A DNA stretch of 64,000 bases. It comes from a phage. The translations under genes and the position numbers were made by a program. This document shows positions 15,014-45,228 of this stretch, piece by piece. The stretch lies in NCBI GenBank assembly GCA_024672315.1, contig GCA_024672315.1_4714.1; one strand, written 5' to 3'. The notes under the pieces are model-generated. The model made no database searches. It saw only the letters and a program-made list of their open reading frames with translations, and was not told where the DNA came from. Each line of letters begins with the position of its first letter. Positions within the stretch are counted from its first letter, which is position 1.

Positions 15014-15038
15014 TCACGTAAGTAATATAGCCGTGAAA
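15014..15038 (-). promoter_or_regulatory. conserved 25-nt promoter-like motif, copy 1 (TATATTAC core on the minus strand)
   Basis: Plus strand TCACGTAAGTAATATAGCCGTGAAA; near-identical copies at 39347 and 45204; lies about 50 nt upstream of minus-strand start codon 14973. Confidence 0.5.
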
Positions 15039-15133
15039 GGATTTGTGTTGGTCCGTCTCGATGCCCATCGTATTTTATGGATTGTCGAATGACGTCATTT
15101 TAAGGGACATCCCCGGCCTCCTCCCCAGGAAAG

Positions 15134-17263
15134 GTGTGGGGAGGAGTTTTTATCATACATTCTATTAAATCGAGCGCGATTATGTTGGATAGAATCAATC
15201 GTTTAATGAACCGAATAGCGGTTAAAAATCAGAGTAACAACACCGTGCATATCGGGGGTATCGATGCCTGGCGTCTTTCAGATGACATTCAGCGAATATG
15301 GGGTACCTCCCGATTTATGAAACATATGTTTCGTAATTTCTCTTCTAGTGGACTCAGTCTCCACAACTTTTACCTTCCCGATTTCGTTTATATTCTCGAA
15401 ACGATCATCGAAGCAAAGAATACCCGCAGTAATAAACGCATGCTGAAACACCTTATTGAGGTACTGCTGCAGGAAACCTGGTTGCAAAATACCACAATCG
15501 AGCAACCTGCAATCCTCGATAAAGCACGCATGAACAAAATGCTAACGCTCTCTTTGTTCGATTATCAAGATGAGTTTATCGACATCTATAACCGTAACGT
15601 ACCTAAATACCGACTGAAAGGATACGTGTGCGCAATGGGTGCCGGTGCGGGTAAAACAATCACCGCATTGGCTTTAAGCGCTGCAATGAACGTCGACGTA
15701 TTTGTGGTCTGCTGTCCTAAGAACACCATGCGTTCAGCATGGCAATCCGATGTAAACAAAGCCATCGTTGACCCTGCAACAGAAACCGCGTTCTGGTCAG
15801 ATACAATGCCCCCATCACAGCTGCAGAAAAGCGATAAGTATTATTTTCTGCATTACGAGTCGATGGGTTTATTAAACGATGTGATGATCAAGCATAAACG
15901 CACAGCGAAGCGCGTGTTGATCGTGGTTGACGAAAGCCATAACTTCAACGACAAGAACAGCCAACGTTCCCAACGACTGGTTGATCTCGTACAGACGATG
16001 CGTCAGACCATGAATGCGGATGTGCATGTCTTGTTTATGTCGGGTACGCCCGTTAAACAGATGGGTTCTGAGATGATCCCCTGTTTAGGTTGTATCGACC
16101 CGATGTTCCAAGGACAGGTGGTCGATAGCTTCAAAGCAATTTACGGTTTAACCAGCAGTCGCGCTAACGATATCCTCAGACATCGTCTTGGGTTCATGAT
16201 GCATGTCGTACCTAAAGAGGCTTACCGTAAAACCCGTCCGGAAGTTCAGGATGTTTACGTGAAGCTCCCTAACGGTAGCGATTATACCATCTCAAGTATC
16301 CGTGACGACATGGCGATATTTGTACGCGATCGGGCGAAGTATTACAAGGATAACTGGGGGCATTACAGAAAGATTTTTGATGATGCCTTGGACTACTATC
16401 GTAAGACTATTCGTACCGACGGAGAACGTAAAGAGCTATCTCGATACGAATCGATTGTTGCTCGTTTCCAGAAGGGTTACGACCCTGTCAGAGACAAAGA
16501 AGATGCGATGTTCTGCAACGCGTTTGAAAAACGTTCCATCATGCCGGTTCTTCCTTCTGATTTAAGGGTTGCTTTCAAAGACGCCAAGAGCGTCATCAAG
16601 TACGTTGGGTTGAAAATTCAGGGTGAAGCGTTGGCGCGTGTTCTAGGTGCAGCCCGCATTCGGTGTCATGTCGACATGGTGGAGTACATCGACTTCGAAG
16701 GGTACATCAACAACGCTGAAGCCAAAGTGTTGATCTTCACGTCGTACGTTCAGGTGGTTGAGCGCGTCGACAACATGCTTCGTGATGCGGGTTTCTTACC
16801 GGAACCCATTTACGGGAAGACCAACAAGAACATCAACCAGATACTTGCTCGTCTACGCGATGATCCTGACAGCGGTCCCGCTATCGCAACATTTGATAGC
16901 TTAGCTGAAGGGGTTCCAATGCTGATGTGTAATGTGGGTCTTTTCCTGAACAACCCATGGCGTTCATCCGATGAAATCCAAGCCATCAGTCGTCTCGATC
17001 GTGTAGGGCAAACGCAACCTGTTCGGATCTATCGTTTCATGTTGGATACAGGAAGCGAGGGTAACGTTTCTACACGTAGCCACGAAATCATGGAGTTAAG
17101 TCGACAGCTTGTTGAAGAAATCACGGGTGTCAAATACGTGGTGAACAAGCAAGACGATGTTAACTTGCAGGAAACGTTGGCGATGGAAGGATACGATCAA
17201 TACGTTACCGTAAACACCACGGAATACGATATTAAACCACGACCTGCGTTCTTGGAATGGTGA
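15134..17263 (+). CDS. SNF2/SF2-family helicase
   Basis: Walker A GAGAGKT, DExH-like VVDESHNF, helicase C-terminal motifs; track ORF starts at GTG 15134 inside a hairpin, first ATG is at 15182, so the start is uncertain. Confidence 0.65.
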   Translation: MWGGVFIIHSIKSSAIMLDRINRLMNRIAVKNQSNNTVHIGGIDAWRLSDDIQRIWGTSRFMKHMFRNFSSSGLSLHNFYLPDFVYILETIIEAKNTRSNKRMLKHLIEVLLQETWLQNTTIEQPAILDKARMNKMLTLSLFDYQDEFIDIYNRNVPKYRLKGYVCAMGAGAGKTITALALSAAMNVDVFVVCCPKNTMRSAWQSDVNKAIVDPATETAFWSDTMPPSQLQKSDKYYFLHYESMGLLNDVMIKHKRTAKRVLIVVDESHNFNDKNSQRSQRLVDLVQTMRQTMNADVHVLFMSGTPVKQMGSEMIPCLGCIDPMFQGQVVDSFKAIYGLTSSRANDILRHRLGFMMHVVPKEAYRKTRPEVQDVYVKLPNGSDYTISSIRDDMAIFVRDRAKYYKDNWGHYRKIFDDALDYYRKTIRTDGERKELSRYESIVARFQKGYDPVRDKEDAMFCNAFEKRSIMPVLPSDLRVAFKDAKSVIKYVGLKIQGEALARVLGAARIRCHVDMVEYIDFEGYINNAEAKVLIFTSYVQVVERVDNMLRDAGFLPEPIYGKTNKNINQILARLRDDPDSGPAIATFDSLAEGVPMLMCNVGLFLNNPWRSSDEIQAISRLDRVGQTQPVRIYRFMLDTGSEGNVSTRSHEIMELSRQLVEEITGVKYVVNKQDDVNLQETLAMEGYDQYVTVNTTEYDIKPRPAFLEW

Positions 17264-17268
17264 TTAAG

Positions 17269-17296
17269 AAGCTCTGTCTGACATCAGACAGAGCTT
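17269..17296 (+). terminator. intrinsic terminator-like hairpin followed by TTATG
   Basis: Perfect 12-bp stem AAGCTCTGTCTG/CAGACAGAGCTT with ACAT loop, then T-rich TTATGTTGTATTTG; directly after the helicase stop. Confidence 0.6.
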
Positions 17297-17363
17297 TATG
17301 TTGTATTTGTTGCAACAATCGTATGACGTATACGCGTTGTACTTATTTAATAAGGCAGAATAA

Positions 17364-20182: not shown

Positions 20183-22813
20183 TTACAATTCAAAATCTTC
20201 ATCGATAACACGCTGGGTAAGCACTTTGTCGCTGAAGAACTCCACCTTGCGCTGATGGTATTTACGGTGCGCTTCGATAGAAGTACATACCAGATACCAG
20301 AACGTTGGCGTCATTCCTTCAAACTTCCCTTTCAGCTGACGCAGTCGTCCCAACACCTGAATGTTACCGGTTCGTGACCCCATCGCTAGCGTCATGAACG
20401 TCATCACCAAGTCAGGAAGGTCGATACCTGTACCTGCTGATTTCACGGTTGTAACGCTAATATCGTTATCCAGCAAGACCATGAAATCTTCTTCAGCAGT
20501 ATAAGGACCGATCTCTAACTCAGGAATACGCTCACTGAGATAGTGCGACAACGACTTACACATATCAACGGTTGCACAATACACCAGCATCTTCATGCCT
20601 TCCTGATACTGGTTCATGAAACCCTTGATAATAACGGTATAGATGAAGTTAAAGTACGCGAGTTTGAGTTGCTTGTTCTTCATGATAGACTGTTCGAATA
20701 TCGTGTGTGAATAAGCTCCGCCAAACCCTTTGTATCTGACTTTATCTGTACTGCGTAGTCGATATGTTACCGCATTTACCGCAATGTATTTCTTGTATTC
20801 GCCTTTCGCATAACGGGCTTCTTTCGGATACATCAAATACAACATCTGTTCGATAAACGGATCATCGGATACCGCTGTTGCCGACAGATAAATGATTTCC
20901 GGAATATTGGCGTAACACTTGACCTTAAACAAGAAATGCAATGCTTCGTGACACTCGTCATGAATCAGCAAACCTATGCCGGTCTTTTCCCAAAACTCAG
21001 CGGGATGGAAGGCATATGGTGCAACGCAATTATTCTTCTCGTAGTCCGCAATGTAACGTTGGAACATGTTCAAGGAGAACAATGCGATTTTGAAGTCGAG
21101 CTCACCTTGTTCAACCAAGGTTTGAAACTCCAACATACTGTAACGAGGAATGTCGGGATGCGGTGGATCCTCCTTAGCGTTCCCGCGTATCTCGATAACG
21201 TCCCCTGGTTCCATCCCGAAGAAGTTCAGCAGTGAGCTTCGCCAACCTGGCATGTATCTCGGCGACAGAATGATACCCGTCCGTACACCACGTCTAAACA
21301 CGATTTCCTGTGACATCGCGGTGTTATGCGTGACGATAAAGTCTTTCACCACAAACAACGCTGAAGGATCATCGATCGTAATGCAACGTGCATCCGCAAC
21401 ACGGGAAGGTTTAATTGACAGTACACGTAGCATACTTTCGAAGTATTGTCCGTCAACAGGACAGCGTTCCAGCTTCTTCGGAAGCGTAACGATTTCATGC
21501 GGACGTTTATACCGTATCGTAACCATGTACGCTAGCCGTCCCTTATGTCTCTCCCCCTTGTAGGTGTAATACGGTTGTTTAATACGTAGACGAGCATACC
21601 CACCAATCGAACGAACCAAGTAGATAACGTCATCTGAAAGCTGTTTGCTCGAAGTACAGAAAACAATAGATCCTCCCTTCTCCACCGTTCCGTCGGTATC
21701 GATAAGACCTGCGAGTATTTCGCAACGTTGTCTGTGTGACGCCATCATGTACTGTTTCGGAACAAACTTCTCCCAGGATCGTTTACCCATCAACCCCAAC
21801 TGATCAAGCGCTAATGCCGTCTCTGACCGCCCACCGTAATTGATTAACGTTGCGGCAGGCGTCTTCGTTACCGCATAGTCGTATTTCTCGCGGTACTGTA
21901 TTTCACAGTCATCCGGAAGACGACTTAACACCTTATTCAAGATGAAATCGTCAGGAGTTGTGATTATCGGGGATGTTGATAAATGACCATCCCCTAACAG
22001 AACACCAAGCACGTACGGATCAAGCGGTAGATCTGCATCAGGAGTATGCTCAGACTCACAGTACGGAATGTAAAGTCGTTTATTGGACAGCTCCAGGATA
22101 CGAATCATCTCAAGTGTATTGATAACCCGCATGGGATAAGGATTGTTTTTGTCCCATCCCCAGTTAGGTCTCATACATGCCCAGAGATGCTCGCCGCAGG
22201 CTTCAACACGGCGACCGTCAGCAAAGACAATCTCATAGAGCTGTTTTGCTTTATGGTCGAAGATATTGGTTACCTTCGTTGGTCGGCCATTAGCAGCCGT
22301 GATGGTATCACCTATCTTCAAATCGCCTAATTGACGCCATCCGCCAGGGACTTTTACGAGCGTGGTAAGCGGATTTGCTTTACCCGACCCCGTTTGAGCG
22401 GTGTTTAGGCTCATTCTGAAGGGGGTATCCTTACCCCCGTCCATGTACTCCAACCATTCTTGCTGATCTTCACGCCATGGAAACTTCCATTTCTTTACGA
22501 ACTCCACTTCTTTACCTGGCACCGGATCGTGATAAACGATTTCCAACCACTCTTTTCGTATCCCTCGGGAAAAGATAAAATCCAAAAACGATTTCAATTG
22601 TTCACGGAGTAAGTATACCTCGCTATAATCGCTTCTCGCTGCGGCATACGTGTTTATGGTATCGGTAACCATTCTCCGTGTACGAGGGTCACGCCGTTTC
22701 CTCAGATGCAAACAACGGTCTCGAAGGTAATGGCCGATAAGATGGGCAAATCGAAGTCCGTATCCGCTCAGCCTCATGCCATGCGAGAAGACGTCGATAC
22801 GAGCTAACTTCAT
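20183..22813 (-). CDS. SF2 helicase containing an intein (host protein plus intein)
   Basis: 876 aa; Walker A TGSGK is interrupted, followed after about 352 aa by T and later DExH motif LIHDECHEA and helicase C-domain motifs; ATGA overlap with the upstream beta-prime C gene. Confidence 0.75.
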   Translation of the reverse strand: MKLARIDVFSHGMRLSGYGLRFAHLIGHYLRDRCLHLRKRRDPRTRRMVTDTINTYAAARSDYSEVYLLREQLKSFLDFIFSRGIRKEWLEIVYHDPVPGKEVEFVKKWKFPWREDQQEWLEYMDGGKDTPFRMSLNTAQTGSGKANPLTTLVKVPGGWRQLGDLKIGDTITAANGRPTKVTNIFDHKAKQLYEIVFADGRRVEACGEHLWACMRPNWGWDKNNPYPMRVINTLEMIRILELSNKRLYIPYCESEHTPDADLPLDPYVLGVLLGDGHLSTSPIITTPDDFILNKVLSRLPDDCEIQYREKYDYAVTKTPAATLINYGGRSETALALDQLGLMGKRSWEKFVPKQYMMASHRQRCEILAGLIDTDGTVEKGGSIVFCTSSKQLSDDVIYLVRSIGGYARLRIKQPYYTYKGERHKGRLAYMVTIRYKRPHEIVTLPKKLERCPVDGQYFESMLRVLSIKPSRVADARCITIDDPSALFVVKDFIVTHNTAMSQEIVFRRGVRTGIILSPRYMPGWRSSLLNFFGMEPGDVIEIRGNAKEDPPHPDIPRYSMLEFQTLVEQGELDFKIALFSLNMFQRYIADYEKNNCVAPYAFHPAEFWEKTGIGLLIHDECHEALHFLFKVKCYANIPEIIYLSATAVSDDPFIEQMLYLMYPKEARYAKGEYKKYIAVNAVTYRLRSTDKVRYKGFGGAYSHTIFEQSIMKNKQLKLAYFNFIYTVIIKGFMNQYQEGMKMLVYCATVDMCKSLSHYLSERIPELEIGPYTAEEDFMVLLDNDISVTTVKSAGTGIDLPDLVMTFMTLAMGSRTGNIQVLGRLRQLKGKFEGMTPTFWYLVCTSIEAHRKYHQRKVEFFSDKVLTQRVIDEDFEL
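21323..22378 (-). mobile_element. intein with LAGLIDADG homing endonuclease domain
   Basis: About 352 codons between GSGK and T; Hint-like N-terminal block, two LAGLIDADG motifs (LLGDGHL, AGLIDTDGT), C-terminal VTHN followed by +1 Thr; first intein residue appears to be Ala. Confidence 0.7.
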
Positions 22814-24816: not shown

Positions 24817-24961
24817 TATTACTTTCCGATTTAAATGGTTTTATCATACGGTTTACCAATTCCGTTGGAATTTACTATCGCCATGATAGCATCGGGAATC
24901 CCTTCTCTTAGGTTATGTAGGTGTTAATATATCTCCACTGCCGGAGTAAAAGTCGGCAACA

Positions 24962-29058: not shown

Positions 29059-29077
29059 AGGACTTCCTATTATCGAA

Positions 29078-32432: not shown

Positions 32433-34019
32433 TTATTTTTTTCCTCTTAAATTTACTACGTGTTCATTTAATCGAACAACTAATTGCACAAGCTGCTGAC
32501 GGATATCTGCTGGACAAAGCATCAATCCTTTACGGTCAGCTGGGACTTTCTCAAGGATTTCCGGGCCTGCTGCTGAAACATCCCAGTCCCATTCACAAAA
32601 CGCATCGGCCACCATGTTAATACCGACAACCGGTAAAGTTGTACGTTCATCTTCATACATGGCGTGTGGATACAATTTATTGACAGTAATGATCTCCTGT
32701 GGTTTTAATTGGTGGATAATCTGATAAACATCGTCGCGTTTAACCTGGATACCTACGGTCAGCGCTGCCAGTTGAGGAAAACCCCAATGGTCTAATAAGC
32801 AAGCTGCAATCGCTAACGCTTTTGCTTGATGCACGGCTTCAATCGGTGCCAGACTTCTCGCCGGAAGATGGCTATCAAGCAACCATTGTGCCAGTGCTCG
32901 GCATCCACGGTTGATTGGTTTTAACTCAACGGTGTCATCATGTTTAGCGTACGTGTATCCGTCGTAACGTTTTGCGATACGCGCATACATGTCTTCAACT
33001 TTACCGTAAGGTGCTGTTTCGTCGACGTCGTGCAACACACGTTCCATCTGGGTGAGATACGCAATATCAAGAATGAGTACACGCGGTGAACGTTTATCTT
33101 TCACCATCAACGCATCAATCACGCCTTGACTGTCTTCATCTTGCGCGTTCCCTCGTGGGGTTTTCTCACGAATAGGTCCGCTGAAACGTCGTTCCGTACA
33201 AAGGTTATTCACATAGCTAAAGATCAGTGTTACCAGATGCGTACAACTCACCAACACCCCATCTTTAACGACAGGCTGTACGGCTTGGTCCAAGTCGCGT
33301 ACGGCTAGACGACGGACGATAGCTTGTGAACGCAACCAGCCTGGCACTTTCTCCGTCGACATGTAATCCACGGTCATCGACAGCGTGATCTTTTTATCAC
33401 CCGTCTGTGCGCGGATATAGTCTTCCAGTCGGTCGTAAGCAGCGATATCATGAATGCGTGTTTTATACATCAGTGACATAGCCACTTCTTCTTTACGGAC
33501 TGTCCCGTACGTTTTCCCTGCGTCAATCAGAAACTCTGCCCAAATCGGCACCATCAGACGGACGTAGATCGCTAACGCCGTTAACTCAACGTAATCATTT
33601 CGTAAATAGGTTTTCTCGGGTATATCATCCTCACCTAATGTTGTTTTCATGTCCGGCGGTAATTTTACCCAACCTGGGGTATTACACAATGCCAGAATCT
33701 CTTCATACACAACCGGTTTGTAAATTTCACCAACGGCGCGACTCAACTCCTCCATTTGTTGCTGTGGAGCAATGTAGTTATCCATCGCTTCACGTGCTTT
33801 AACGAACCCTTCGAAGATGTCGTCGATTCGACGTGGGTTCTTTTGTTCTATCCAGGCGAGATACTTGTTAATCTCCCGCATCTGATTGCTAGCCATATCC
33901 CCATCGATCTTGATGTAACCCTGACCTGAAAATTCCACGGTACGTCCATCACGGTGTTTGATGAGGTAGTGATCCAGCTTTTCTTTTCCTTGCGTCGTAA
34001 TGACGGGCACTATGTGCAT
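32433..34019 (-). CDS. hypothetical protein
   Basis: Track ORF runs to 34154 (573 aa); internal ATG at 34019 (MHIVPV...) with AAGAGG Shine-Dalgarno is the likelier start. Confidence 0.45.
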   Translation of the reverse strand: MHIVPVITTQGKEKLDHYLIKHRDGRTVEFSGQGYIKIDGDMASNQMREINKYLAWIEQKNPRRIDDIFEGFVKAREAMDNYIAPQQQMEELSRAVGEIYKPVVYEEILALCNTPGWVKLPPDMKTTLGEDDIPEKTYLRNDYVELTALAIYVRLMVPIWAEFLIDAGKTYGTVRKEEVAMSLMYKTRIHDIAAYDRLEDYIRAQTGDKKITLSMTVDYMSTEKVPGWLRSQAIVRRLAVRDLDQAVQPVVKDGVLVSCTHLVTLIFSYVNNLCTERRFSGPIREKTPRGNAQDEDSQGVIDALMVKDKRSPRVLILDIAYLTQMERVLHDVDETAPYGKVEDMYARIAKRYDGYTYAKHDDTVELKPINRGCRALAQWLLDSHLPARSLAPIEAVHQAKALAIAACLLDHWGFPQLAALTVGIQVKRDDVYQIIHQLKPQEIITVNKLYPHAMYEDERTTLPVVGINMVADAFCEWDWDVSAAGPEILEKVPADRKGLMLCPADIRQQLVQLVVRLNEHVVNLRGKK

Positions 34020-34223
34020 AACAACCTCTTTTCGCGGTTCCCTGTTAAAACGTCTTCTGTGACGTCTACCACAAAGGTAATATAAGCGTGAATAATTTTG
34101 GATTCCGGCTGAGTTATCGCTCAGCATGCAAGGCATCCCGCCGAAGCGAGACACCTTGCACTAACGGAAAATATTCGCGTTACCTTCTGAATCGAAGACT
34201 CAGAATGCGATGCTAAAGCATGA

Positions 34224-35012: not shown

Positions 35013-35085
35013 TTTCAGCCTCGTTACGTAGTGTGAATCAATTTCTGGTTCAGATGATAGTCAATATTAGTTAAAAATTACAGCC

Positions 35086-37045: not shown

Positions 37046-37827
37046 CAGAATTCCTCTAAATTGCTGCTGCTAATAGTCCCCGTCGTAGACGGCATGTTTC
37101 TACTACCCACCGACGCTGTTGTTGAAGAGGTTCTGGCTAGATTCAATCCGTTTAATAAACCACGCTCTTTTACCGTACGACGTGAACCATCACGAACGTC
37201 GTAAAGGGGTACGTTATAATGGTCAAAAATCCGAAGCCATTGCACGTAATCAGCAACAACATGGTCTTTGCTTTCATTCGGGGCAAAGCGATCAAGCTGA
37301 TGGTCGACGTAAGCTTTAGCGCTTTCAGGATTGAAGTTATACTGTCGGCGTGCTTTGTCCACCATCGCGAGGAAACATGTATTGGGGTCACGATTGATAT
37401 ATGAACGCGTCCGGATAAAGATAGCCGGTACCGTAAACAGAACCTTGTTGTTATTCCCGTCAGCAACGATGTTAACCGCACGATGTGGTTGGCCTGCTAT
37501 CTTGCACCAATCGTGAACAATGGTGCTATTACTCAACATCTCCGCGTATTCAGGATCCTGCGAAAACATTCCTGCGAACGGGTACAAGAAATGTTTAACG
37601 AACAGCGATTCGGGCAGGATGTTGGGACGCGTCATCTCCTGTAAACCTTTTCGTAGAAGCTCGCTGTTGTCTACCAGCTCCTGCCACATATCCGGTCGTG
37701 TTTTCGGGATGGACGGGTCCTGAGCACGACGAATGCGTTCTTCTTCATTTACAACCACTACCCCAGCCGGATACCCCAATAAATCCGTTCCTTCGCTAAC
37801 GTTGCTGTTAGTTTGGCGCGCCTTCAT
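37045..37827 (-). CDS. hypothetical protein
   Basis: 260-aa ORF. Confidence 0.4.
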   Translation of the reverse strand: MKARQTNSNVSEGTDLLGYPAGVVVVNEEERIRRAQDPSIPKTRPDMWQELVDNSELLRKGLQEMTRPNILPESLFVKHFLYPFAGMFSQDPEYAEMLSNSTIVHDWCKIAGQPHRAVNIVADGNNNKVLFTVPAIFIRTRSYINRDPNTCFLAMVDKARRQYNFNPESAKAYVDHQLDRFAPNESKDHVVADYVQWLRIFDHYNVPLYDVRDGSRRTVKERGLLNGLNLARTSSTTASVGSRNMPSTTGTISSSNLEEF

Positions 37828-38215
37828 TTACTTCCTCCTGCCACTTGATAAAATTACCACGCTCGGATCGCAGAACACCACCCAGATCGTACGATATACC
37901 TTTCTCTGTGACAATCCCTCCAATCTGGAGATCGACACGTTCCGTCGTCGGATCGATATACTTGACACGGACTTTCAATTCCACGCGATCGTAATAACGC
38001 ATTAAATAATCATACAACATCCGGTATGTCGCATCTTCCAATTTGGGTGCGCTATACTGCGATGTTGCAATGAGGTACGGTAGTGAAACGATGGAACCTT
38101 GATAGCAATACGACTGGGAATAATTCGATATTGCGAAATTGGTCATTAACCCATCCAACTTTTTACCCGATGCGGTTAAAAAGCTCGACAGTCCCGGTAA
38201 CGGATTCGATGCCAT
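37808..38215 (-). CDS. hypothetical protein
   Basis: 135-aa ORF. Confidence 0.4.
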   Translation of the reverse strand: MASNPLPGLSSFLTASGKKLDGLMTNFAISNYSQSYCYQGSIVSLPYLIATSQYSAPKLEDATYRMLYDYLMRYYDRVELKVRVKYIDPTTERVDLQIGGIVTEKGISYDLGGVLRSERGNFIKWQEEVNEGAPN

Positions 38216-38228
38216 GAGGAACTCCTCT

Positions 38229-38702
38229 TTAAGCGTAATTCATTCCAACCAATCTATCGTAGTTAGGCATATGCCCTAACTCCAGTTCGACAGGCATGGA
38301 TACATTGGTGCGTGGTGCGTAAAATGTTCGCGTATGCATATCGATATACCCACAGTCCAAATAAACAATATCGGACAACTCCGACGGATGTTTAGGCGCG
38401 GGAATCTTTAATCGATTATAACACTCAAGCTGCCACCAAGCATGAAAAAAGTTATTGTAGGCGTACGATTTACTGTTGGCAACTTTAAGTCCGTAGATCA
38501 CCCATAACGCCGCCATGAAGTTGGTTGCGTTAATTCGCATCGGTTGTTCATTATTGAGCATGTACGTGTAGGTAAACAACGGTGTGTTACCGTCACCAAA
38601 ACGTCCGACTAAGGTATTGTTCGTGTGTTCGACCTCAAAGGAAAAATGCTGGCTGCTATTGCCATCAAAATGGATCATTCCGTTCTCCTCAAGCTTTTTC
38701 AT
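38229..38702 (-). CDS. hypothetical protein
   Basis: Track ORF starts with GTG inside a hairpin at 38768; first in-frame ATG at 38702 (MKKLEEN...) preferred. Confidence 0.4.
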   Translation of the reverse strand: MKKLEENGMIHFDGNSSQHFSFEVEHTNNTLVGRFGDGNTPLFTYTYMLNNEQPMRINATNFMAALWVIYGLKVANSKSYAYNNFFHAWWQLECYNRLKIPAPKHPSELSDIVYLDCGYIDMHTRTFYAPRTNVSMPVELELGHMPNYDRLVGMNYA

Positions 38703-38797
38703 TTCATAGAGTGGTGGAAATTCGTAGAAAGTTACAAAAATAAAAAAGAATGGGTAGCCCCTCCCCACCCGAAGGTAGGGAGAGACCGCAAATATAT

Positions 38798-39283
38798 TTA
38801 AACCAAAGCTGCGATAACGTCGTTAACATTGCGGCCTCGCAACTCTGCCGCTAAACGAATAACTTCATCCAGGGAACGGTTTGTACGAATCTTGGCCACT
38901 TTCCAATTTTCAGGATACTGTTCGAAGTTAAGCAACCAAGTCATTACCTTTGCTTGTTCCATACCGTTGAGTTTAATTGTCGTGCGCGGATTGGCTTTGA
39001 ACCACTTCTTGCTCAGCTGCGCCATACGGCGAACAGGGTAAGCGTAAGCGCGAGTCCAGTCTTTGGACAGATTGTCGAGTAATTCACAGTAGCTGTTGTC
39101 GTAGTCTTTGTTGATACGACGTAATAACCAGTTGGCGGTCATCTGATAAAGTTTATCATCTTCACGTAACCGCATACCTGCTACTGCTAAATAAATGATA
39201 AGACCTGCGCCCAGGATGAGAGACAGGATGAACAGAATTTGGGTTTCTTGTGCTAAAGTCATTTTACTATCCTCGGATTTCAT
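38798..39283 (-). CDS. hypothetical membrane protein
   Basis: 161 aa; N-terminal hydrophobic helix LFILSLILGAGLIIYLAVAG; GAGGAT Shine-Dalgarno; directly downstream of promoter-like motif copy 2. Confidence 0.45.
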   Translation of the reverse strand: MKSEDSKMTLAQETQILFILSLILGAGLIIYLAVAGMRLREDDKLYQMTANWLLRRINKDYDNSYCELLDNLSKDWTRAYAYPVRRMAQLSKKWFKANPRTTIKLNGMEQAKVMTWLLNFEQYPENWKVAKIRTNRSLDEVIRLAAELRGRNVNDVIAALV

Positions 39284-39346
39284 TAGGATTTAATTTCCAA
39301 TATAAGGACAATGTGATATGCCTTATACAGTCGATTGATGTTGTAC

Positions 39347-39371
39347 ATCACCTAAGTAATATAGCCGTGAA
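39347..39371 (-). promoter_or_regulatory. conserved 25-nt promoter-like motif, copy 2
   Basis: Plus strand TCACCTAAGTAATATAGCCGTGAAA; about 70 nt upstream of minus-strand start 39283. Confidence 0.5.
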
Positions 39372-39381
39372 AAATAATGGA

Positions 39382-40179
39382 TTAACGTGTTCTCCTGTCA
39401 CGATGTGTATACGACTGAAGACCGATGTCCATATGCGGTAACGTCAGCGTCTGCCAGATCTGTCGTGCGTAGCGATCAAGCGTATAATCGTCAGTAACAC
39501 AATCGACGGGTTCGATGAGGTGAGTCGTATACTGGCTTTTCACAGAGAAAGGTTCGTTGTTAGCTGTATCTCCTAATCCGCTTTTCACCGTGAAGACAAG
39601 ACGTGTGACTATCATCGCCTTATGTTGCTGTTCATTGTAACGAAGGCTGCGGTATACGGCATAGCTTCCTCCTTTTAGGCTTCGGGTATAACGAAGGTCG
39701 GAGGTCGTCTCGGAAATCTGATACAGCATCCAGTCTAACGTATCTCGCCAGTACACATCATCCACATCAGGAACCGTGATACCGTACCGCGTAGGCAGCA
39801 ATTCTAAAAGCAATTTATAAAGACCGCGACGTAAGCCATGCTCTTCGGTTTCCGATAAACCGTTTCCAACGTAACGTGAAATACGTGTACGTAAATACGT
39901 ACGGATGAACATATTCGCCATCAGTGTTTTCACTCTGCTACTGGTATCCTCAAAGCGATCAACGCTGAAACTCGTTTCAATCAACCGTCCATTAAAATAC
40001 AATGCAGCAACATACATCGCATTATTGCTATCTCGTTCAATGTTTAAACGACCGCAGATATTGGCTGCGTCGTTCATGGTAAATTCTAATTTATCGTGTT
40101 CGATACGATAGATAATATCCTCCTGGGTTGCTAGGCTCGCAATGCGACGATAGCCCGGAGAAGTACGTTTTACACTCAT
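39382..40179 (-). CDS. hypothetical protein
   Basis: Track start 40218 coincides with the TATG of a TTTATGCCG element; ATG at 40179 with ACGAGGA Shine-Dalgarno preferred. Confidence 0.45.
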   Translation of the reverse strand: MSVKRTSPGYRRIASLATQEDIIYRIEHDKLEFTMNDAANICGRLNIERDSNNAMYVAALYFNGRLIETSFSVDRFEDTSSRVKTLMANMFIRTYLRTRISRYVGNGLSETEEHGLRRGLYKLLLELLPTRYGITVPDVDDVYWRDTLDWMLYQISETTSDLRYTRSLKGGSYAVYRSLRYNEQQHKAMIVTRLVFTVKSGLGDTANNEPFSVKSQYTTHLIEPVDCVTDDYTLDRYARQIWQTLTLPHMDIGLQSYTHRDRRTR

Positions 40180-40221
40180 GATTGTCCTCGTTTTCAATTT
40201 TAAGATTGCGTGCGGCATAAA

Positions 40222-40246
40222 CCCTCCCCGCCTTATGCAGGGAGGG
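40222..40246 (-). terminator. GC hairpin followed on the minus strand by TTTATGCCG
   Basis: CCCTCCC...GGGAGGG stem; minus-strand TTTATGCCG at 40213..40221. Confidence 0.5.
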
Positions 40247-40261
40247 TAGCCATTAAATGGA

Positions 40262-40900
40262 TTAACCTAATTTACCACCGGCGATATTGGTGAAATCTTC
40301 GCCATCAGGAACTTGCAGTAGGATACGTGCCATGTCCCAGTTGGTTAATGTGATTGCTTTATCATCGATACTCAGTTCTGGTAGGTCGAGTTCATGATCA
40401 TCAAACTCGTAGGAAATACTCCACGTTTCATCTGTTTTAGGATCGGTCATCAATACACCGTCTGTTACACGCATGTAGTCCGGATGCAGTTCATTACTGA
40501 ACGTACTGAACGGATCGGTGTAACATTCAGCATACCCCTCGATCTGCTGACGCTGTGCCTTCGTACGTAATTCAGGGCACGCCATGATCAGTTGTCGAGA
40601 TATACCGTTTGCCGCACGGAAGTCTTCCACGGTGATACATGGCATAACCACATCGTCATGGAAGATGTTCTCCGATTGTCTCAACAGCGTCTTACGGAGT
40701 TCAGCATAGTTTATCTGATTAAATGCGTCGAACGTTGCTAACGATTCAGCGTAAAAATGCTTTACGTGTTCGCTTGCGCCGCCGAGGCTATTCATCAGCT
40801 TGTGGCCGTACTCCATAAAGCTTTTATCGAGACCGGAGGACATTTCTCCGAACCTCAGTGCACGATAACTGTCTCGTCCACCTGTAAATATTTGCGCCAT
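40262..40900 (-). CDS. hypothetical protein
   Basis: 212-aa ORF. Confidence 0.45.
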   Translation of the reverse strand: MAQIFTGGRDSYRALRFGEMSSGLDKSFMEYGHKLMNSLGGASEHVKHFYAESLATFDAFNQINYAELRKTLLRQSENIFHDDVVMPCITVEDFRAANGISRQLIMACPELRTKAQRQQIEGYAECYTDPFSTFSNELHPDYMRVTDGVLMTDPKTDETWSISYEFDDHELDLPELSIDDKAITLTNWDMARILLQVPDGEDFTNIAGGKLG

Positions 40901-40915
40901 TACAGGCGTCCTCCT

Positions 40916-43151
40916 TTAGCAATGGTTGTTAGTTGCTTCTATTTCGTCAAGATACGGTTCTACGTCATCGCCCTCCACGAATTCGTTGAACCAACAGTCA
41001 ATGGTAGAAATAACCGGTGACTGGTGTTCACATTTCTTAGATACCTTAAAAGGTACGTTATTATCCATCATACCGAGTTCGGGTCGAAAACGCCCGAAAT
41101 GTTTCGCAGTCCAAATGTCTGGGACGATATGGTTGTTCATAGCGTCTCCGTCGCTGTTTATCGACTATATCTTCATCCTCATTGCGAGGAGTCTCCCGTT
41201 TGGGTCTGTGTTTAACAGAGCCTACTCTACTCGACGTCGCGTCTTTCGATAGTCTGTGAGCACACATCTTAACAAACATTCGTGGATTCCTAAACAGGTG
41301 AATGTTCTTGTTGAGATGCTTCGCTGCGGATTATTCCCGTCCTACCTCTTTTACCGTACCCAGTTCATTACGCTGGCCCTCATCTATGTCACCACGATGA
41401 GTTGGTGTGTAGTCCGATTACAGAAACTTCCCGTCAATTAGAGAGTTTTAACTACGTTCCTGTTACCAGAAACCAGATCCCGACGGTATCAATAAATCAA
41501 CGTAAGTTATTGATTTAATTGAAAAAACTGAAATCTGCATTATCTAAATCTTCAGTATGGTTCGCTACGCCATACCCGCACATACGTGCAACTTACGTCT
41601 TTCACGTAAGAAGAGACTATATCTTTCACCCTCAGCATTATCTGGTCGGGGCTCCCATTTCGGCGGTCATCTGACCGGTGGTTTCCCACGCCGCTTGGCC
41701 CTAACGCCCGTAAGCGATAGTCGTTGAGCGCATCTCCGTTCTGGAGACTTCGCTGCGGATTCCCCAATCCTTGCCGCTTTTACCATACCCGAATGATTAG
41801 TTCAGCCCCACGCGCTGTTCCCAGGCGTGGTTGGTGGACAAGGCTCTAAGTAGGTTCCCGCATTAGAGAGTTCCTCGTAACAACATTTCTGCGTTACTGG
41901 GCCTAACGACCCTTTCAAGATCATCACGCTTAACCCGATGGTGTTATCCTGCGGATCGCGTTTAACCTTGGTGATTTCAAGACATTGGTTACTGCTTCGG
42001 TCAAGTGATGGGTTTCGAACAAAGCCACACACAATCCCATCGAACGGTGTATCAGCAATAAGCTCATCATGCAGCTCGCTCATCATCGGATGATAATTAC
42101 GGACATGTTCCGCAACGAACGCACGTGCTGCTCTTGGTGAATAACCACGATGGAATAACTTGGATTGGATATGTTCTTTATTGGTTAAAGTAAATGGTGC
42201 GTATGGGAAATGCAGATGATAATAACGATGGTTCGCTGTTATCGAACTGATTACGGTACGCGTGGTAAATGGATGTAATGTACCTAATATGTTTTTACGT
42301 GTGATACCTTTCTTCTTACCGATGAACTCATCGAAAATCGCCGCATGGTATTGCAGCAGCTTCAATTGCACTTTCGCCATCCAGTTTTCTTTCTTTCTGG
42401 CGCTCAAAGGTGTTGTTGGATGATAGATACTGTTCAACGTACCGATAGCATCGATCGCACCTTCCATTTTGCTATCCGCATAACGACCGGTTGGCGTATT
42501 CTCGATAACGAACATCATGGCCGCAGGAAAGCTGATATACTGACTGAAGAACTTATCACGATGAATACGGATGAATTCTCGTAGCGTGTCAACTTTCTCC
42601 GTGTTCTTCGGTCCACGTAACGTCGGTCCTTTATACAAGATCTCCATGATGCGATCGAAGTTCTGTATAAAACTATTTACGCCACGTCGTATCCCGAATA
42701 CATCGAATTGCTGCTCCAGATAGTTCTTGAGTTCGATGGGTCGTTTTACATTTGGACGGTAACTGGCATCAATGAGCCACGTCATCGTTTCAAAGCTTTT
42801 GATATTCAACTCGCTTGCCAGCACGAGATGGACCAACGGGTTAATGAACGCATCGATTCCTTCAGGAACGCGCGCCCACACCGTCGAACGAATCTCCTGT
42901 TCTGCTGGGTAGGTTACAACCGTTTTACAGTTTGGACACACCGTGCCGAGCAGCTCACCACGATTGTAGAAACCACAACCACATTGTGGCGTGATATCCA
43001 ACGTATCGCTGGAGTAAACACGGGTGATAAAACTGTTTAATTTCTTCTTCTCTTCGACGACTTTTGTATCGTAATCGTTCAACAAAATCGGCGTAAAAGG
43101 AAGTTCTGCGAGCTGTCTATCGAAACTCACGATATCGAGCATGATGGCCAT
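40916..43151 (-). CDS. multisubunit RNA polymerase beta-prime-like subunit, N-terminal fragment, interrupted by two putative group I introns
   Basis: Exon 1 (43151..41879) has zinc-ribbon CGCGFY...CPNC and RNPSLDR resembling NRAPTLHR; proposed micro-exon 41543..41531; exon 3 (41153..40916) encodes DGDAMNNHIVP...LGMMDNN resembling DFDGDQMAVHVP...LMMSTNN; spliced length 1524 nt, in frame. Confidence 0.65.
41154..41530 (-). ncRNA. putative group I intron B (377 nt, no ORF)
   Basis: Minus-strand Q-like AATCCGCAGC (41332..41323), R-like GCTCACAGACTATCG (41261..41247), S-like GAAGATATAGTC (41174..41163); AAATC (41516..41512) complementary to exon end GATTT; ends in G; 5' region homologous to intron A. 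Confidence 0.6.
41544..41878 (-). ncRNA. putative group I intron A (335 nt, no ORF)
   Basis: Minus-strand Q-like AATCCGCAGC (41761..41752), R-like GCTCAACGACTATCG (41729..41715), S-like AAAGATATAGTC (41626..41615), GAAA-loop hairpin (41610..41592); starts after an exon U, ends in G. Confidence 0.6.
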
Positions 43152-43193
43152 GGGGTATCTCCTACAAATGAAAAAGAACGTTAGGACGTATAA

Positions 43194-43217
43194 GGGAGGG
43201 AGGTTGCCCTCCCTCCC
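43194..43217 (-). terminator. GC hairpin between the 631-aa gene and the beta-prime N gene
   Basis: GGGAGGGAGG / CCTCCCTCCC perfect 10-bp stem with short loop. Confidence 0.5.
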
Positions 43218-43243
43218 GTCAGATTACATCGAACGTTCTTCCA

Positions 43244-45139
43244 TTAGAACAGGTTGAATGCCCCACCCATGTTGTTACCGCCAACATTCGGACGATCGCT
43301 ACGTGCGTAGATGTTGCCGGAGATGTTACCCAGACCACGAGCACGTGCTGCCATGTTACCACGAACAGCGGTACCTGCCAGGTGCTGGATGTTCTCAGGA
43401 CGGATGGTGAAGCCAGCATCAGCCGCAGCTTCGATCAGCGCCTGCAGTGCTAACGGATCGAAGTCGTAACGCATTGCCCAGCCGGTTTGTTCCCAGCTAC
43501 CAGACAGAACACGATCAATGATTTCGTGACGAGCGACAACACGCTGAGACATCGTCATATCGGTACGGTCGAAGCTGTCTTCCCAAGCTTCTACGGTATC
43601 CGGGTTAGTGATGTTCATCATGTACAGATCGTCCATATCACGAATATCGTGACGGTGACCATCCTGGTGGTTGTAGTAACCCAGCGGGATACGGTTACCG
43701 GTAGCGTAGACCAGCGGTTGGCCGTATTGATATTTCTTGCTGAAGCAACCCAGGGTAGTATCATCGAAGGCACGGTAGAGTGCTTTGTAACCTTCGGAGA
43801 TTTCTTGAACTTTACCGTCAACGTTGCCCGTAAAGATCTTCTCAGCCGCCGGGATCATACGCAGCAGCCAGCTATACTCGCCTTCTTCCGGTACGTCGAT
43901 AGAAATCAGCAGAGACGGATACAGAACCTGTTGCAGGAACTTGTAAATCTGCTCGTTGGTTTGCGTAGACAGATCCAGCGGTGCAGTCACTTCAGGATCC
44001 AGCACCATCGCCAGAGCACCTGGGTTATGCGGACCAATACCACGAGCCGCGTTGCTGATTAAAGACTGTGCCCATGCCATGCCGCTGTTCAGCGTAGCGA
44101 TGGTACCAATCAGACCCAGCACGAAGCTGTTCGGTGTGAACGCATCCAGCTCCAGCGGGTAAACGCTGGTCATCACGTAACGCGGCTGGTACTGTACAGT
44201 CGGCGGTACCGGATAGCCGTTAACCAGAACAGGGCCTTGGTTGAAGGTCGGGTTCTGCGGGCTGTAGGTCAGGTCAATGTAACCGGTGGTGGCGACCAGA
44301 CGCTGTTGACTATCGTAATCGCTCATCGCTTGACGGATGCGGTTAGAGATAGTTACAGTGATGTCAGAACGCACAGGGTTACCAACAATATCGCTGTCCT
44401 GCATACCGCTGGTGTTGTACTGAACGCTGCTGATTGGCTGATCGCTTGCCATCATGCCCAGGTTGAACTGCGGCAGACCCAGTTTATCACCGAGACGGAT
44501 TTCGATCGCGGTTTGGATTGCGTTATCTGCAGCAGACAGCAGGGTGGTTGCCAGATGCGCAGATTCAGCGGTGATTTCATTGGTCACCACAGCCAGACCA
44601 GCGATACGAACAGTACCGTTAGACTTACCGCCAATAGCTGAATACATTGCCGCCATGACTTCGTTGATGAACGTACCGTTCAGGTTATCAACCCAGGTAC
44701 GCGGTACCAGAATGTTACCATGCGGACCTTGTTCTTCACGACGCGGCAGCGGAGCCAGACCAGCAACCAGCGGCAGGACGTAACCGAAGAAGTGGTTATG
44801 ATCACCAACTTTTGCACCGCTCATAACAACCAGGGTCGGATACGGTACGCTGTACTGGTTCGGGTCAACCGCAACAAAGATGAAGTCGTCTTTGAACTGG
44901 GTATCTTCCAGATATTTCTCCATCAGACGACGGAGATTCAGTACCTGCTCGGAGCCGGTATTACGGCTGATACGACGGCTCAGTGTACGGTTGATCGTAC
45001 GCATCGTATGAGTTACTTTAGGACGGTCGGCAAAATCTGCAGCGGTTTCCAGCGCCTCATCAGCACGTTGTGCGGTGCGGGTTTCAGCTGCACGAATTTC
45101 TACATTATCGTTACCGTTATTACGTACGTCTAAGCCCAT
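43244..45139 (-). CDS. hypothetical protein (candidate nuclear-shell/chimallin-like protein, speculative)
   Basis: 631 aa; AAGAGGAA Shine-Dalgarno; directly downstream of promoter-like motif copy 3; chimallin assignment rests only on size, likely early expression and genomic context. Confidence 0.5.
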   Translation of the reverse strand: MGLDVRNNGNDNVEIRAAETRTAQRADEALETAADFADRPKVTHTMRTINRTLSRRISRNTGSEQVLNLRRLMEKYLEDTQFKDDFIFVAVDPNQYSVPYPTLVVMSGAKVGDHNHFFGYVLPLVAGLAPLPRREEQGPHGNILVPRTWVDNLNGTFINEVMAAMYSAIGGKSNGTVRIAGLAVVTNEITAESAHLATTLLSAADNAIQTAIEIRLGDKLGLPQFNLGMMASDQPISSVQYNTSGMQDSDIVGNPVRSDITVTISNRIRQAMSDYDSQQRLVATTGYIDLTYSPQNPTFNQGPVLVNGYPVPPTVQYQPRYVMTSVYPLELDAFTPNSFVLGLIGTIATLNSGMAWAQSLISNAARGIGPHNPGALAMVLDPEVTAPLDLSTQTNEQIYKFLQQVLYPSLLISIDVPEEGEYSWLLRMIPAAEKIFTGNVDGKVQEISEGYKALYRAFDDTTLGCFSKKYQYGQPLVYATGNRIPLGYYNHQDGHRHDIRDMDDLYMMNITNPDTVEAWEDSFDRTDMTMSQRVVARHEIIDRVLSGSWEQTGWAMRYDFDPLALQALIEAAADAGFTIRPENIQHLAGTAVRGNMAARARGLGNISGNIYARSDRPNVGGNNMGGAFNLF

Positions 45140-45203
45140 TTGGGATTCCTCTTTTCTTAAACTTTATTAAATGACGTCATTGAATCAGCTTCTACTCGCT
45201 CAT

Positions 45204-45228
45204 TCACCTAGGTAATATAACCCTGAAA
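45204..45228 (-). promoter_or_regulatory. conserved 25-nt promoter-like motif, copy 3
   Basis: Plus strand TCACCTAGGTAATATAACCCTGAAA; about 75 nt upstream of minus-strand start 45139. Confidence 0.5.

What the first reader, a model, noticed from the sequence alone, without database searches (positions are those of the whole stretch)
15014..45228. Three copies of a 25-nt conserved motif with a TATATTAC core, each oriented toward a minus-strand gene: candidate phage-RNAP early promoters
Plus-strand copies TCACGTAAGTAATATAGCCGTGAAA (15014..15038), TCACCTAAGTAATATAGCCGTGAAA (39347..39371) and TCACCTAGGTAATATAACCCTGAAA (45204..45228) are far too similar for chance. Read on the minus strand each is TTTCA(C/G)GG(C/T)TATATTAC(T/C)TA(C/G)GTGA and lies 50 to 75 nt upstream of a minus-strand start with a good Shine-Dalgarno: the HD-domain gene (14973), a membrane protein (39283) and the 631-aa protein (45139). 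TATATTAC is, as I recall, the early-promoter consensus reported for phiKZ virion RNA polymerase. A degenerate TACATTAC copy sits upstream of 59839.
Basis: partly seen in the sequence, partly recalled or inferred. Interest (0 to 1): 0.7.

Follow-up and report, generated by a model that had tools for sequence, protein, structure and literature searches.

The report
Goslar-like jumbo phage early promoters
These repeats are copies of the promoter that a giant E. coli phage's particle-borne RNA polymerase most likely uses to switch on its first genes; this kind of promoter is already known from phiKZ-type phages, so the finding is correct but ordinary.

Summary
The window is about 96-97% identical to Escherichia phage Goslar, a nucleus-forming jumbo phage of the Chimalliviridae.

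The element is really about 40 nt long: TAAYNC, an A-rich spacer, TTTCACGGC, TATATTAC, YTASGTGA. Its blocks and spacings match the published early-promoter consensus of phiKZ, 201phi2-1, OBP and N1M2.

In the complete Goslar genome a matrix built from the sites finds 12 strong sites. All lie on the gene-sense strand and 11 of 12 are intergenic (7% of the genome is non-coding; P = 2e-12).

The copies lie upstream of four genes:
- chimallin
- the sigma-like non-virion polymerase subunit (phiKZ gp68 ortholog)
- the first gene of the run that ends with chmC
- an HD-hydrolase gene

The same motif stands upstream of chimallin and gp68 orthologs in phiKZ, 201phi2-1, RAY, PCH45, Eowyn and PhiPA3, although the proteins are only about 24% identical.

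The degenerate TACATTAC copy is only weakly supported. This is a new member of a known kind; no transcription start was mapped here.

The parts
15009..15050 (-). P1: strong early-promoter copy (core TATATTAC 15022-15029; GTGA 15014-15017, predicted start region). It lies in the divergent spacer between the HD-hydrolase gene and the plus-strand SNF2-type helicase.
   Evidence: 46.2 bits. Identical in Goslar at 142780-142821.
14287..14973 (-). HD-domain phosphohydrolase gene, the first gene downstream of P1. The leader is about 42 nt, with SD AAGAGG.
   Evidence: Pfam HD, E = 5.7e-8. Goslar_00159.
34064..34105 (-).
   Evidence: 44.2 bits. Identical to Goslar 160771-160812.
34128..34159 (-). GC-rich hairpin GCAAGGTGTCTCGCTTCGGCGGGATGCCTTGC between chmC and P4. 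It is a likely terminator that insulates the upstream transcription unit.
   Evidence: Sequence. The same hairpin-then-promoter layout occurs upstream of gp68 orthologs in phiKZ, 201phi2-1, RAY and PCH45.
32433..34019 (-). Ortholog of phiKZ gp68, the sigma-like promoter-specificity subunit of the non-virion RNA polymerase. It is the first gene downstream of P4, with a leader of about 51 nt.
   Evidence: PDB 7ogp_B / 9rjs_B PHIKZ068, E = 5e-28.
39343..39384 (-). P2: strong copy (core 39356-39363; GTGA 39348-39351).
   Evidence: 50.5 bits. The Goslar copy at 166049-166090 differs only at low-information positions.
38798..39262 (-). 154-aa protein with an N-terminal transmembrane helix, the first gene downstream of P2. 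The minus-strand gene run continues to chmC (34224-35012).
   Evidence: Translation. Goslar_00182 start. chmC = Goslar gp176 / phiKZ gp67, supported by synteny with gp68.
45199..45240 (-). P3: strong copy (core 45212-45219; GTGA 45204-45207) in the divergent spacer upstream of chmA.
   Evidence: 47.5 bits. The core lies 80 nt from the ATG, exactly as in phiKZ gp54.
43244..45139 (-). chmA (chimallin, the phage-nucleus shell protein), the first gene downstream of P3. The leader is about 66 nt.
   Evidence: PDB 7sqt Goslar chimallin, E = 0. Pfam Chimallin_Phikzvirus.
41802..43151 (-). 5' exon of the non-virion RNA polymerase beta'-N subunit (phiKZ gp55 ortholog), next gene after chmA. A hairpin at 43194-43217 separates the two genes.
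   Evidence: PDB 7ogp_A, E = 1.5e-59. Hairpin sequence. A Goslar preprint reports a separate start site for this gene.
59858..59899 (-). Its status is uncertain.
   Evidence: 16.5 bits against a shuffle maximum of 14.2. Sequence. It lacks the TTT(C)A block.
24899..24940 (-). Second weak variant, CAGTGGAGATATATTAACACCTACATAACCTAAGAGAAGGGA, upstream of the phiKZ gp74 ortholog (non-virion polymerase beta'-C, 22810-24816). Its status is uncertain.
   Evidence: 17.4 bits. Sequence. gp74 identity. With 59858-59899 it forms the only pair in the genome that shares GGAGAT...CCTACATWAC.

Best explanation
The repeats are early promoters of a Goslar-like nucleus-forming jumbo phage (Chimalliviridae). [quoted passage not shown]

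Each promoter is an asymmetric element of about 40 bp:
- an upstream TAAYNC block (about -35 to -30)
- an A-rich spacer
- TTTCAC(G) (about -22)
- the core TATATTAC or TACATTAC (about -14 to -7)
- a conserved start region, YTASGTGA

By analogy with mapped phiKZ and 201phi2-1 promoters, transcription should begin within about 2 nt of the GTGA and run leftward on the minus strand. In the window, four such promoters head the transcription units for:
(i) chimallin
(ii) the sigma-like gp68-type subunit of the second, non-virion polymerase
(iii) a membrane protein through to ChmC
(iv) an HD-hydrolase and nucleotide-metabolism gene run

The injected polymerase would therefore directly launch construction of the phage nucleus and of the polymerase that takes over middle and late transcription.

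Shown here: the motif, its statistics, its location and orientation, the identities of the downstream genes, and cross-genus positional conservation. Inferred: the start position, which polymerase reads the sites, and their timing.
For: 1. Statistics. There are 3 exact and 4 relaxed matches against 0.00 and 0.36 expected.

2. Host genome. The window is 96.6% identical to phage Goslar. All five vRNAP subunits are detected in Goslar virions.

3. Genome-wide test in Goslar. A 42-nt matrix gives 12 sites of 40-53 bits, then a gap down to 17.7 bits, with a shuffle maximum of 14.2. All 12 are on the minus strand and are followed by a minus-strand start codon 32-212 nt downstream. Of the 12, 11 are intergenic although only 7.06% of the genome is non-coding (binomial P = 2.4e-12).

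4. Architecture. The same blocks and spacings appear in the published early-promoter consensus of phiKZ, 201phi2-1, OBP and N1M2. They are also visible in my anchored stack of 20 sites from 7 phages. The literature places the AT-rich core about 10 nt upstream of the start, with conserved -20 and -30 regions.

5. Positional orthology. The motif lies upstream of chmA in phiKZ (core 80 nt from the ATG, as in the window), RAY, Eowyn and PhiPA3. It lies upstream of gp68 orthologs in phiKZ, 201phi2-1, RAY and PCH45, each time after a terminator hairpin. PHIKZ054 has an early-motif primary start site by dRNA-seq. [quoted passage not shown]

6. Cross-prediction. In phiKZ 1-50 kb the Goslar-derived matrix ranks the gp54 promoter first (23 bits, shuffle maximum 15). 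Its six reported hits (threshold 6 bits) are all on the plus strand; five lie in spacers just upstream of plus-strand genes. Three of those six (12.6 and 7.9 bits, and 15.8 only marginally) do not clearly exceed the shuffle maximum of 15.

7. Gene identities fit an early programme: chimallin and the non-virion polymerase subunits gp68 and gp55.

8. Experiments in Goslar. chmA and chmC are transcribed at 5 min and at normal levels when infection is arrested at the vesicle stage, the stage the authors attribute to vRNAP transcription.
Against: No 5'-end data exist for this phage, and none could be read for Goslar.

The Goslar preprint's figure legend says the 'TSS sequences' of chmA and the next gene begin 91 nt upstream of their start codons. 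Taken literally as the start site, position -91 (window 45230) would put the motif inside the transcript. The identical number for both genes, and the use of non-5'-specific RNA-seq, suggest it is only the window displayed. This point remains unresolved.

Goslar expresses 175 of 249 genes at 5 min, yet only 12-14 motif copies exist. Either the early transcripts are very long or other early promoters lack the motif.

No motif lies in the 92-nt spacer before the gp55 ortholog, which is reported to have its own start site.

One strong Goslar site lies inside an annotated 62-aa ORF.

Comparison with close relatives gives no information, because the flanks are as conserved as the motif.
Confidence: 0.88

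Rival explanations
1. The sites are promoters, but for a different polymerase. Candidates are host sigma-70 RNA polymerase, because TATATT resembles a -10 box, or the phage non-virion polymerase as middle-class promoters.
For: TATATT matches TATAAT at 5 of 6 positions. In phiKZ, gp54 also has a secondary middle-class start site. In 201phi2-1 some non-virion polymerase genes use middle promoters.
Against: None of the four TATATT boxes was called as the -10 hexamer of a sigma-70-type site (-35-like hexamer at 16-18 nt). The scans found 0 such sites in 14500-15500 and 14 in 33500-46000 against 19 expected, and none uses the motif's -10. The conserved TTTCAC block lies only 3 nt upstream of the core. 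Published middle (A-rich plus TACT at -22) and late (TATG) motifs look different. phiKZ-type transcription is independent of host polymerase.
Confidence: 0.06
2. The motif is an operator. On this view a symmetric binding site (TCACG-N13-CGTGA) for a phage or host regulator sits near promoters, and the motif is not the promoter itself.
For: Copy 1 contains a perfect 5-bp inverted repeat, TCACG...CGTGA. The centre is AT-rich.
Against: The symmetry is not maintained. Copy 2 keeps 4 bp and copy 3 keeps 3 bp, and the C-to-G change in the left arm is not compensated in the right arm. Across 20 sites the conserved columns are asymmetric. Every site has a strict orientation relative to the downstream gene. 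The relatives' versions (TTTGAGAT...TAACATG) are not palindromic.
Confidence: 0.03
3. The motif is a structural or repeat element without promoter function. Possibilities are a DNA or RNA hairpin, a processing site, or a relic of duplicated intergenic DNA.
For: It is a repeated sequence in intergenic DNA. Copy 1 folds at -3 kcal/mol (z = -3.8).
Against: Copies 2 to 4 do not share the fold: energies are -0.8 to -0.1 kcal/mol, and z is about 0 for two of them. Similarity stops at the edges of the roughly 40-nt element, so the copies are not segmental duplications. No Rfam family matches at gathering threshold. Conservation at orthologous positions in genera whose proteins are about 24% identical argues for selection.
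Confidence: 0.03

Closest known systems
phiKZ early (virion RNA polymerase) promoters: 28-32 sites mapped by primer extension, dRNA-seq and ONT-cappable-seq (Ceyssens 2014 as cited in PMC7598289; PMC8244752; PMC10914365)
   Same: The core TATATTAC is identical. A T-rich block lies about 9 nt upstream of the core and an A-tract lies before it. The sites are intergenic and co-oriented with the genes. The positions upstream of chmA (gp54, core 80 nt from the ATG in both) and of gp68 are the same.
   Different: The -20 block is TTTCACGG here and TTTGAGAT in phiKZ. The start region is (S)GTGA here and less conserved in phiKZ. There are about 12-14 copies per genome against about 30. A TACATTAC sub-class exists in Goslar. 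Nothing has been mapped experimentally for this phage.
201phi2-1 early promoters (consensus TTAWTAVAA_HYWTTTRARR_BTATATTACDWHDGTG; ONT-cappable-seq, PMC11512511)
   Same: The three-block layout (-30 TTAWTA/TAAT, -20 TTT.A, -10 TATATTAC) is the same, and so is the downstream GTG at the same distance. One site lies upstream of the gp68 ortholog gp124, after a terminator hairpin.
   Different: Bases inside the -20 block differ. The host is Pseudomonas. Only 6 sites were captured experimentally there.
Predicted early promoters of OBP, N1M2 and EL-type jumbo phages (PMC7058600 Table 2)
   Same: N1M2 and OBP have TTTCARRYAKATATTATYWAAGTGWA, with block order and spacing identical to TTTCASGGYTATATTACYTASGTGA. 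The EL consensus AAACCTACATTATY resembles the two weak variants here, which read AAACCTACATTACC and ACACCTACATAACC.
   Different: The core ends in T rather than C. Those motifs are bioinformatic predictions only.
AR9 and PBS2-type jumbo phage early promoters, and N4 virion-polymerase hairpin promoters
   Same: In each case a virion-packaged phage polymerase reads phage-specific early promoters.
   Different: AR9 uses a different consensus on uracil-containing DNA. N4 vRNAP is a single-subunit enzyme that recognises DNA hairpins, and no conserved hairpin exists here. These phages are not members of the same promoter family.

Membership tests
Chimalliviridae (phiKZ-type) vRNAP early promoter | A conserved AT-rich core TATATTAC (or a close variant), with a T-rich block about 9 nt upstream of the core and further conservation near -30 | tested here: met
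   Four window sites and 12 Goslar sites carry TA[T/C]ATTAC, with TTTCAC 3 nt (its TTT 9 nt) upstream of the core and TAAYNC about 21 nt upstream. This matches the published consensus strings.
Chimalliviridae (phiKZ-type) vRNAP early promoter | Sites are intergenic, at the head of gene runs, and co-oriented with the downstream genes | tested here: met
   All four window copies are intergenic and point at minus-strand genes. In Goslar 11 of 12 are intergenic against 7.06% non-coding DNA, P = 2.4e-12, and all 12 are co-oriented.
Chimalliviridae (phiKZ-type) vRNAP early promoter | The phage encodes and packages a multisubunit virion RNA polymerase | tested here: inconclusive
   The window itself holds only non-virion polymerase subunits: gp55, gp68, gp71 and gp74 orthologs. 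The 96-97%-identical Goslar packages five vRNAP subunits according to virion mass spectrometry. The vRNAP genes of this phage lie outside the window.
Chimalliviridae (phiKZ-type) vRNAP early promoter | The same element occupies orthologous positions in related phages where early starts were mapped | tested here: met
   It lies upstream of chmA in phiKZ, RAY, Eowyn and PhiPA3 and upstream of gp68 orthologs in phiKZ, 201phi2-1, RAY and PCH45. Mapped early promoters exist at PHIKZ054 and 201phi2-1 gp124.
Chimalliviridae (phiKZ-type) vRNAP early promoter | The transcription start lies about 6-8 nt downstream of the core (core centred near -10) | not testable with these tools
   No 5'-end data could be read. 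The Goslar preprint's start-site figure is not held, and its legend is ambiguous.
Chimalliviridae (phiKZ-type) vRNAP early promoter | Downstream genes are transcribed immediately after infection, independently of host polymerase and of new protein synthesis | not testable with these tools
   There is indirect support only. In Goslar, chmA and chmC transcripts are present at 5 min and at normal levels in infections arrested at the vesicle stage.
Bacterial sigma-70 promoter | A -35-like hexamer lies 16-18 nt upstream of a -10 hexamer | tested here: not met
   No sigma-70-type call uses the motif's TATATT box.
N4-type hairpin promoter / structured DNA element | A conserved stem-loop is shared by all copies | tested here: not met
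   Only copy 1 forms the 5-bp stem. The other copies do not, and there are no compensatory changes.

The most novel reading that the evidence does not exclude
The early promoter is conserved far more deeply than the proteins it controls. The roughly 40-nt element, its offset from chmA (core 80 nt from the ATG in both phiKZ and this E. coli phage) and the module 'chmC, terminator hairpin, early promoter, gp68' persist across genera whose chimallin and gp68 proteins are only about 24% identical. This would imply one family-wide mode of vRNAP promoter recognition that does not depend on the host. In addition, the two weak GGAGAT-N9-CCTACATWACC sites, one of them upstream of the non-virion polymerase beta'-C gene, could be a second, undescribed promoter sub-class.
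Probability: 0.25. Interest if true: 0.45.

Novelty: new member of a known kind. Interest (0 to 1): 0.3.

Why it matters
The sites give a concrete, testable promoter map for an E. coli-infecting nucleus-forming phage, which is the most tractable host for this family. The map covers four strong sites in this window and 12 in Goslar. I found no promoter description for Goslar in the searchable literature or in its GenBank record.

The map places chimallin and the sigma-like subunit of the second polymerase directly under early promoters. That wiring explains the cascade from injected polymerase to phage nucleus plus second polymerase.

The sequences are also ready-made parts for reporter constructs, for in-vitro assays of the still uncharacterised virion polymerase, and for phage engineering.

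The advance is one of annotation and confirmation, not a new principle.

Tried and rejected
- Sigma-70 reading: the scans gave no call on the motif.
- Hairpin or palindrome reading: the fold is not shared by the copies and there is no covariation.
- Rfam on the whole window at gathering threshold, and tRNA search: nothing found.
- Footprinting against close relatives (Goslar and two IMG/VR contigs): uninformative, because the whole spacer is nearly identical.
- Exact 25-mer scan of IMG/VR: it hits only three Goslar-like contigs, so the exact variant appears Goslar-lineage-specific within IMG/VR, while the architecture is family-wide.
- Attempts to read Ceyssens 2014 and the supplementary start-site tables of three transcriptome papers failed because they are not held. 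The exact start offset therefore rests on text statements only.
- PDB search with the putative ChmC gave no hit. Its identity rests on the literature and on synteny.
- Search for further GGAGAT...CCTACAT sites: only the two weak copies exist, so no second motif class could be established.

Full report
OBSERVATION. The three 25-mers are real. The bare core TATATTAC occurs four times, all on the minus strand. The relaxed pattern gives 4 hits against 0.36 expected.

WHAT THE GENOME IS. The window is 96.6% identical over 6 kb to Escherichia phage vB_EcoM_Goslar (MK327938, 237,307 bp), and 95-97% identical across the whole window apart from three indels. Goslar is a nucleus-forming jumbo phage of the Chimalliviridae. 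The Goslar record annotates terminators but no promoters. I found no paper in the searchable library that describes Goslar promoters.

ANATOMY OF THE ELEMENT. I assembled the complete Goslar genome from six fetched pieces and built a matrix from the sites. Scanning gave 12 sites of 40-53 bits, then a gap down to 17.7 and 16.5 bits. The best score in 30 shuffled genomes was 14.2. Aligning the sites shows that the element is about 40 nt long, not 25:
- TAAYNC
- a roughly 6-nt A-rich spacer
- TTTCAC(G)G(C/A)
- TATATTAC, or TACATTAC in 4 of the 12 Goslar sites
- YTASGTGA

Similarity stops at those edges, so the copies are not segmental duplications.

All 12 sites are on the minus strand. Each is followed by a minus-strand start codon 32-212 nt downstream. 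Eleven are intergenic although only 7.06% of Goslar is non-coding (binomial P = 2.4e-12). The twelfth sits in an annotated 62-aa ORF with no homologs noted.

DOWNSTREAM GENES. The four strong copies head these genes:
- P3 (45199-45240) precedes the 631-aa protein, which is chimallin (PDB 7sqt Goslar chimallin, E = 0; Pfam Chimallin_Phikzvirus).
- P4 (34064-34105) precedes a 528-aa ortholog of phiKZ gp68, the sigma-like promoter-specificity subunit of the non-virion RNA polymerase (7ogp_B, E = 6e-28; role).
- P2 (39343-39384) precedes a 154-aa protein with an N-terminal transmembrane helix. The better start codon is 39262, as in the Goslar annotation. The minus-strand run continues to chmC (Goslar gp176 = phiKZ gp67).
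- P1 (15009-15050) precedes the HD-domain hydrolase and a long run of minus-strand genes.

The window also holds the gp55, gp71 and gp74 orthologs of the non-virion polymerase.

COMPARISON WITH KNOWN PROMOTERS. PMC7058600 (Table 2) lists predicted or known early promoters:
- phiKZ: TATATTAC
- 201phi2-1: TTAWTAVAA_HYWTTTRARR_BTATATTACDWHDGTG
- OBP and N1M2: TTTCARRYAKATATTATYWAAGTGWA
- EL: WTTTYAAACCTACATTATY

The window motif has the same blocks at the same spacing. Reviews and transcriptome papers agree on several points. Such motifs mark early operons in every RNA-polymerase-encoding jumbo phage. They were confirmed as early promoters wherever transcripts were profiled. The AT-rich core is centred near -10, with conserved -20 and -30 regions. 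They are attributed to the virion polymerase.

I tested the relationship directly. Upstream of chmA orthologs I found:
- phiKZ gp54: AAAAAAATTTGAGATTTATATTAC, with the core 80 nt from the ATG, the same offset as in the window
- RAY: AAAAAAATTACAAGTCTATATTAC
- Eowyn: TATATTACTTAGGTGA
- PhiPA3: a TATATCAC variant

Upstream of gp68 orthologs the motif is present in phiKZ, 201phi2-1 gp124, RAY (TACATTAT) and PCH45 (TATATTAT). Each time it follows a terminator-like hairpin, as in the window (34128-34159).

PHIKZ054 has an early-motif primary start site by dRNA-seq. [quoted passage not shown] These proteins are only about 24% identical between Goslar-like phages and phiKZ, so the promoter and its position are better conserved than the genes.

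As a cross-prediction I scanned phiKZ 1-50 kb with the Goslar-derived matrix. It ranks the gp54 promoter first (23 bits against a shuffle maximum of 15). Its six reported hits (threshold 6 bits) are all on the plus strand, and five lie in spacers just upstream of plus-strand genes; only the three best clearly exceed the shuffle maximum. All seven TATATTAC occurrences there are intergenic and on the gene-sense strand.

MECHANISM (most likely). The injected five-subunit virion polymerase is detected in Goslar virions and is associated with the injected DNA in the early infection vesicle. It most likely recognises this asymmetric element and initiates within a couple of bases of the GTGA. That gives leaders of about 42 nt (HD gene), 51 nt (gp68 ortholog), 66 nt (chmA) and 87 nt (membrane protein). 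phiKZ leaders are typically 31-40 nt.

The first products would then include the nuclear shell, ChmC and the specificity subunit of the second polymerase. In Goslar, chmA and chmC transcripts are present at 5 min, and at normal levels when infection is frozen at the vesicle stage, the stage the authors attribute to vRNAP transcription. The start position, the identity of the polymerase and the timing are inferred, not shown, for this phage.

RIVALS.
- Sigma-70. None of the four TATATT boxes was called as the -10 hexamer of a sigma-70-type site; the scans found 0 such sites around P1 and 14 against 19 expected around P2-P4, and none of them uses the motif's -10.
- Palindromic operator or hairpin. 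The TCACG/CGTGA symmetry is perfect only in copy 1 and decays without compensation. Copies 2 to 4 do not share the fold. Conserved columns across 20 sites are asymmetric.
- RNA family. There are no Rfam hits at gathering threshold.
- Middle or late class. Their published motifs are different.

CAVEATS.
- Goslar expresses 175 of 249 genes at 5 min from only 12-14 recognisable sites. Early transcripts must therefore be long, or other early promoters exist.
- The gp55 ortholog downstream of chmA is reported to have its own start site, yet I see no motif in that 92-nt spacer. The spacer holds a strong hairpin at 43194-43217.
- The legend says the displayed start-site sequences begin 91 nt upstream of the start codons. 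If that were the actual chmA start, the motif would be transcribed. I read it as a display window, but I could not check the figure.

THE DEGENERATE COPY. The site upstream of 59839 (59858-59899) scores 16.5 bits, and a sibling at 24899-24940, upstream of the gp74 ortholog, scores 17.4. Both are intergenic and correctly oriented. Both carry CCTACAT(T/A)ACC, which resembles the EL and RAY core. They uniquely share an upstream GGAGAT. Both lack the TTT(C)A block. I rate them at about one chance in three of being functional promoters.

VERDICT. This is a new member (Goslar-type) of the known phiKZ-type early promoter family. Interest is modest. Its value lies in annotation, in the clear wiring to chimallin and gp68, and in the conservation of promoter position across genera.

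Noticed in passing
window 21327-22375, inside ORF 20183-22813 (-): The SF2-helicase gene (Goslar_00164 ortholog) is 876 aa here and 524 aa in Goslar. A roughly 1049-nt in-frame insertion that Goslar lacks carries LAGLIDADG / homing-endonuclease domains (aa 353-435). It looks like an intein.
   Followed up: partly
window 40916-43151 (-): exon 1 41911-43151, intron-like 41593-41929 and 41154-41521, 3' exon 40916-41155: The non-virion polymerase beta'-N gene (phiKZ gp55 ortholog) appears to be split by two tandem group I intron-like elements that carry no endonuclease gene. They score 30.8 and 47.8 bits, both below Rfam's cut-off of 50, and flank a micro-exon of about 20 nt at the catalytic NADFDGD motif. 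The first element (41544-41910) is absent from Goslar. The second is shared with Goslar, but there the stretch next to it holds a NUMOD1/HNH endonuclease ORF, part of about 1.4 kb that is missing here. The 3' exon starts DGDAMN and matches phiKZ gp55 residues 439-495 (E = 4e-4). In Goslar it is annotated as a separate hypothetical gene (00185).
   Followed up: partly
window 34128-34159 (-) and 43194-43217 (-): Two strong GC-rich hairpins lie in intergenic spacers. One sits between chmC and promoter P4, a terminator-then-promoter layout that is conserved upstream of gp68 orthologs in phiKZ, 201phi2-1, RAY and PCH45. The other is GGGAGGGAGGGcaaCCTCCCTCCC, between chmA and the gp55 ortholog, and has no U-tract.
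   Followed up: partly
Goslar MK327938 49712-49753 (L002), inside Goslar_00047 (49584-49772): One of the 12 strong promoter copies lies inside an annotated 62-aa hypothetical ORF. The ORF is probably over-annotated or starts further downstream.
   Followed up: no
window 22810-24816, 26890-29223, 32433-34019, 41802-43151: Four of the five non-virion RNA polymerase subunits cluster in this window: orthologs of phiKZ gp74, gp71, gp68 and gp55 (PDB 7ogp chains D, C, B, A). chmA and chmC are in the same cluster. Only gp68 and chmA have a strong early motif directly upstream.
   Followed up: yes
window 15134-17263 (+), 45394-46488 (+), 59945-61189 (+): The plus-strand genes that diverge from the promoter-bearing spacers have no copy of the motif on their own strand. 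They presumably use another promoter class (middle or late) that was not identified here.
   Followed up: no
L007 (IMGVR_UViG_3300011560_000001, 237,533 bp) and L009 (IMGVR_UViG_3300045988_173921): Two uncultivated Goslar-like contigs in IMG/VR carry the same chmA promoter. L007's chimallin is 99% identical to the window's, but its DNA is only about 97% identical over 7 kb. At least three distinct Goslar-like genomes besides Goslar itself are therefore known.
   Followed up: partly
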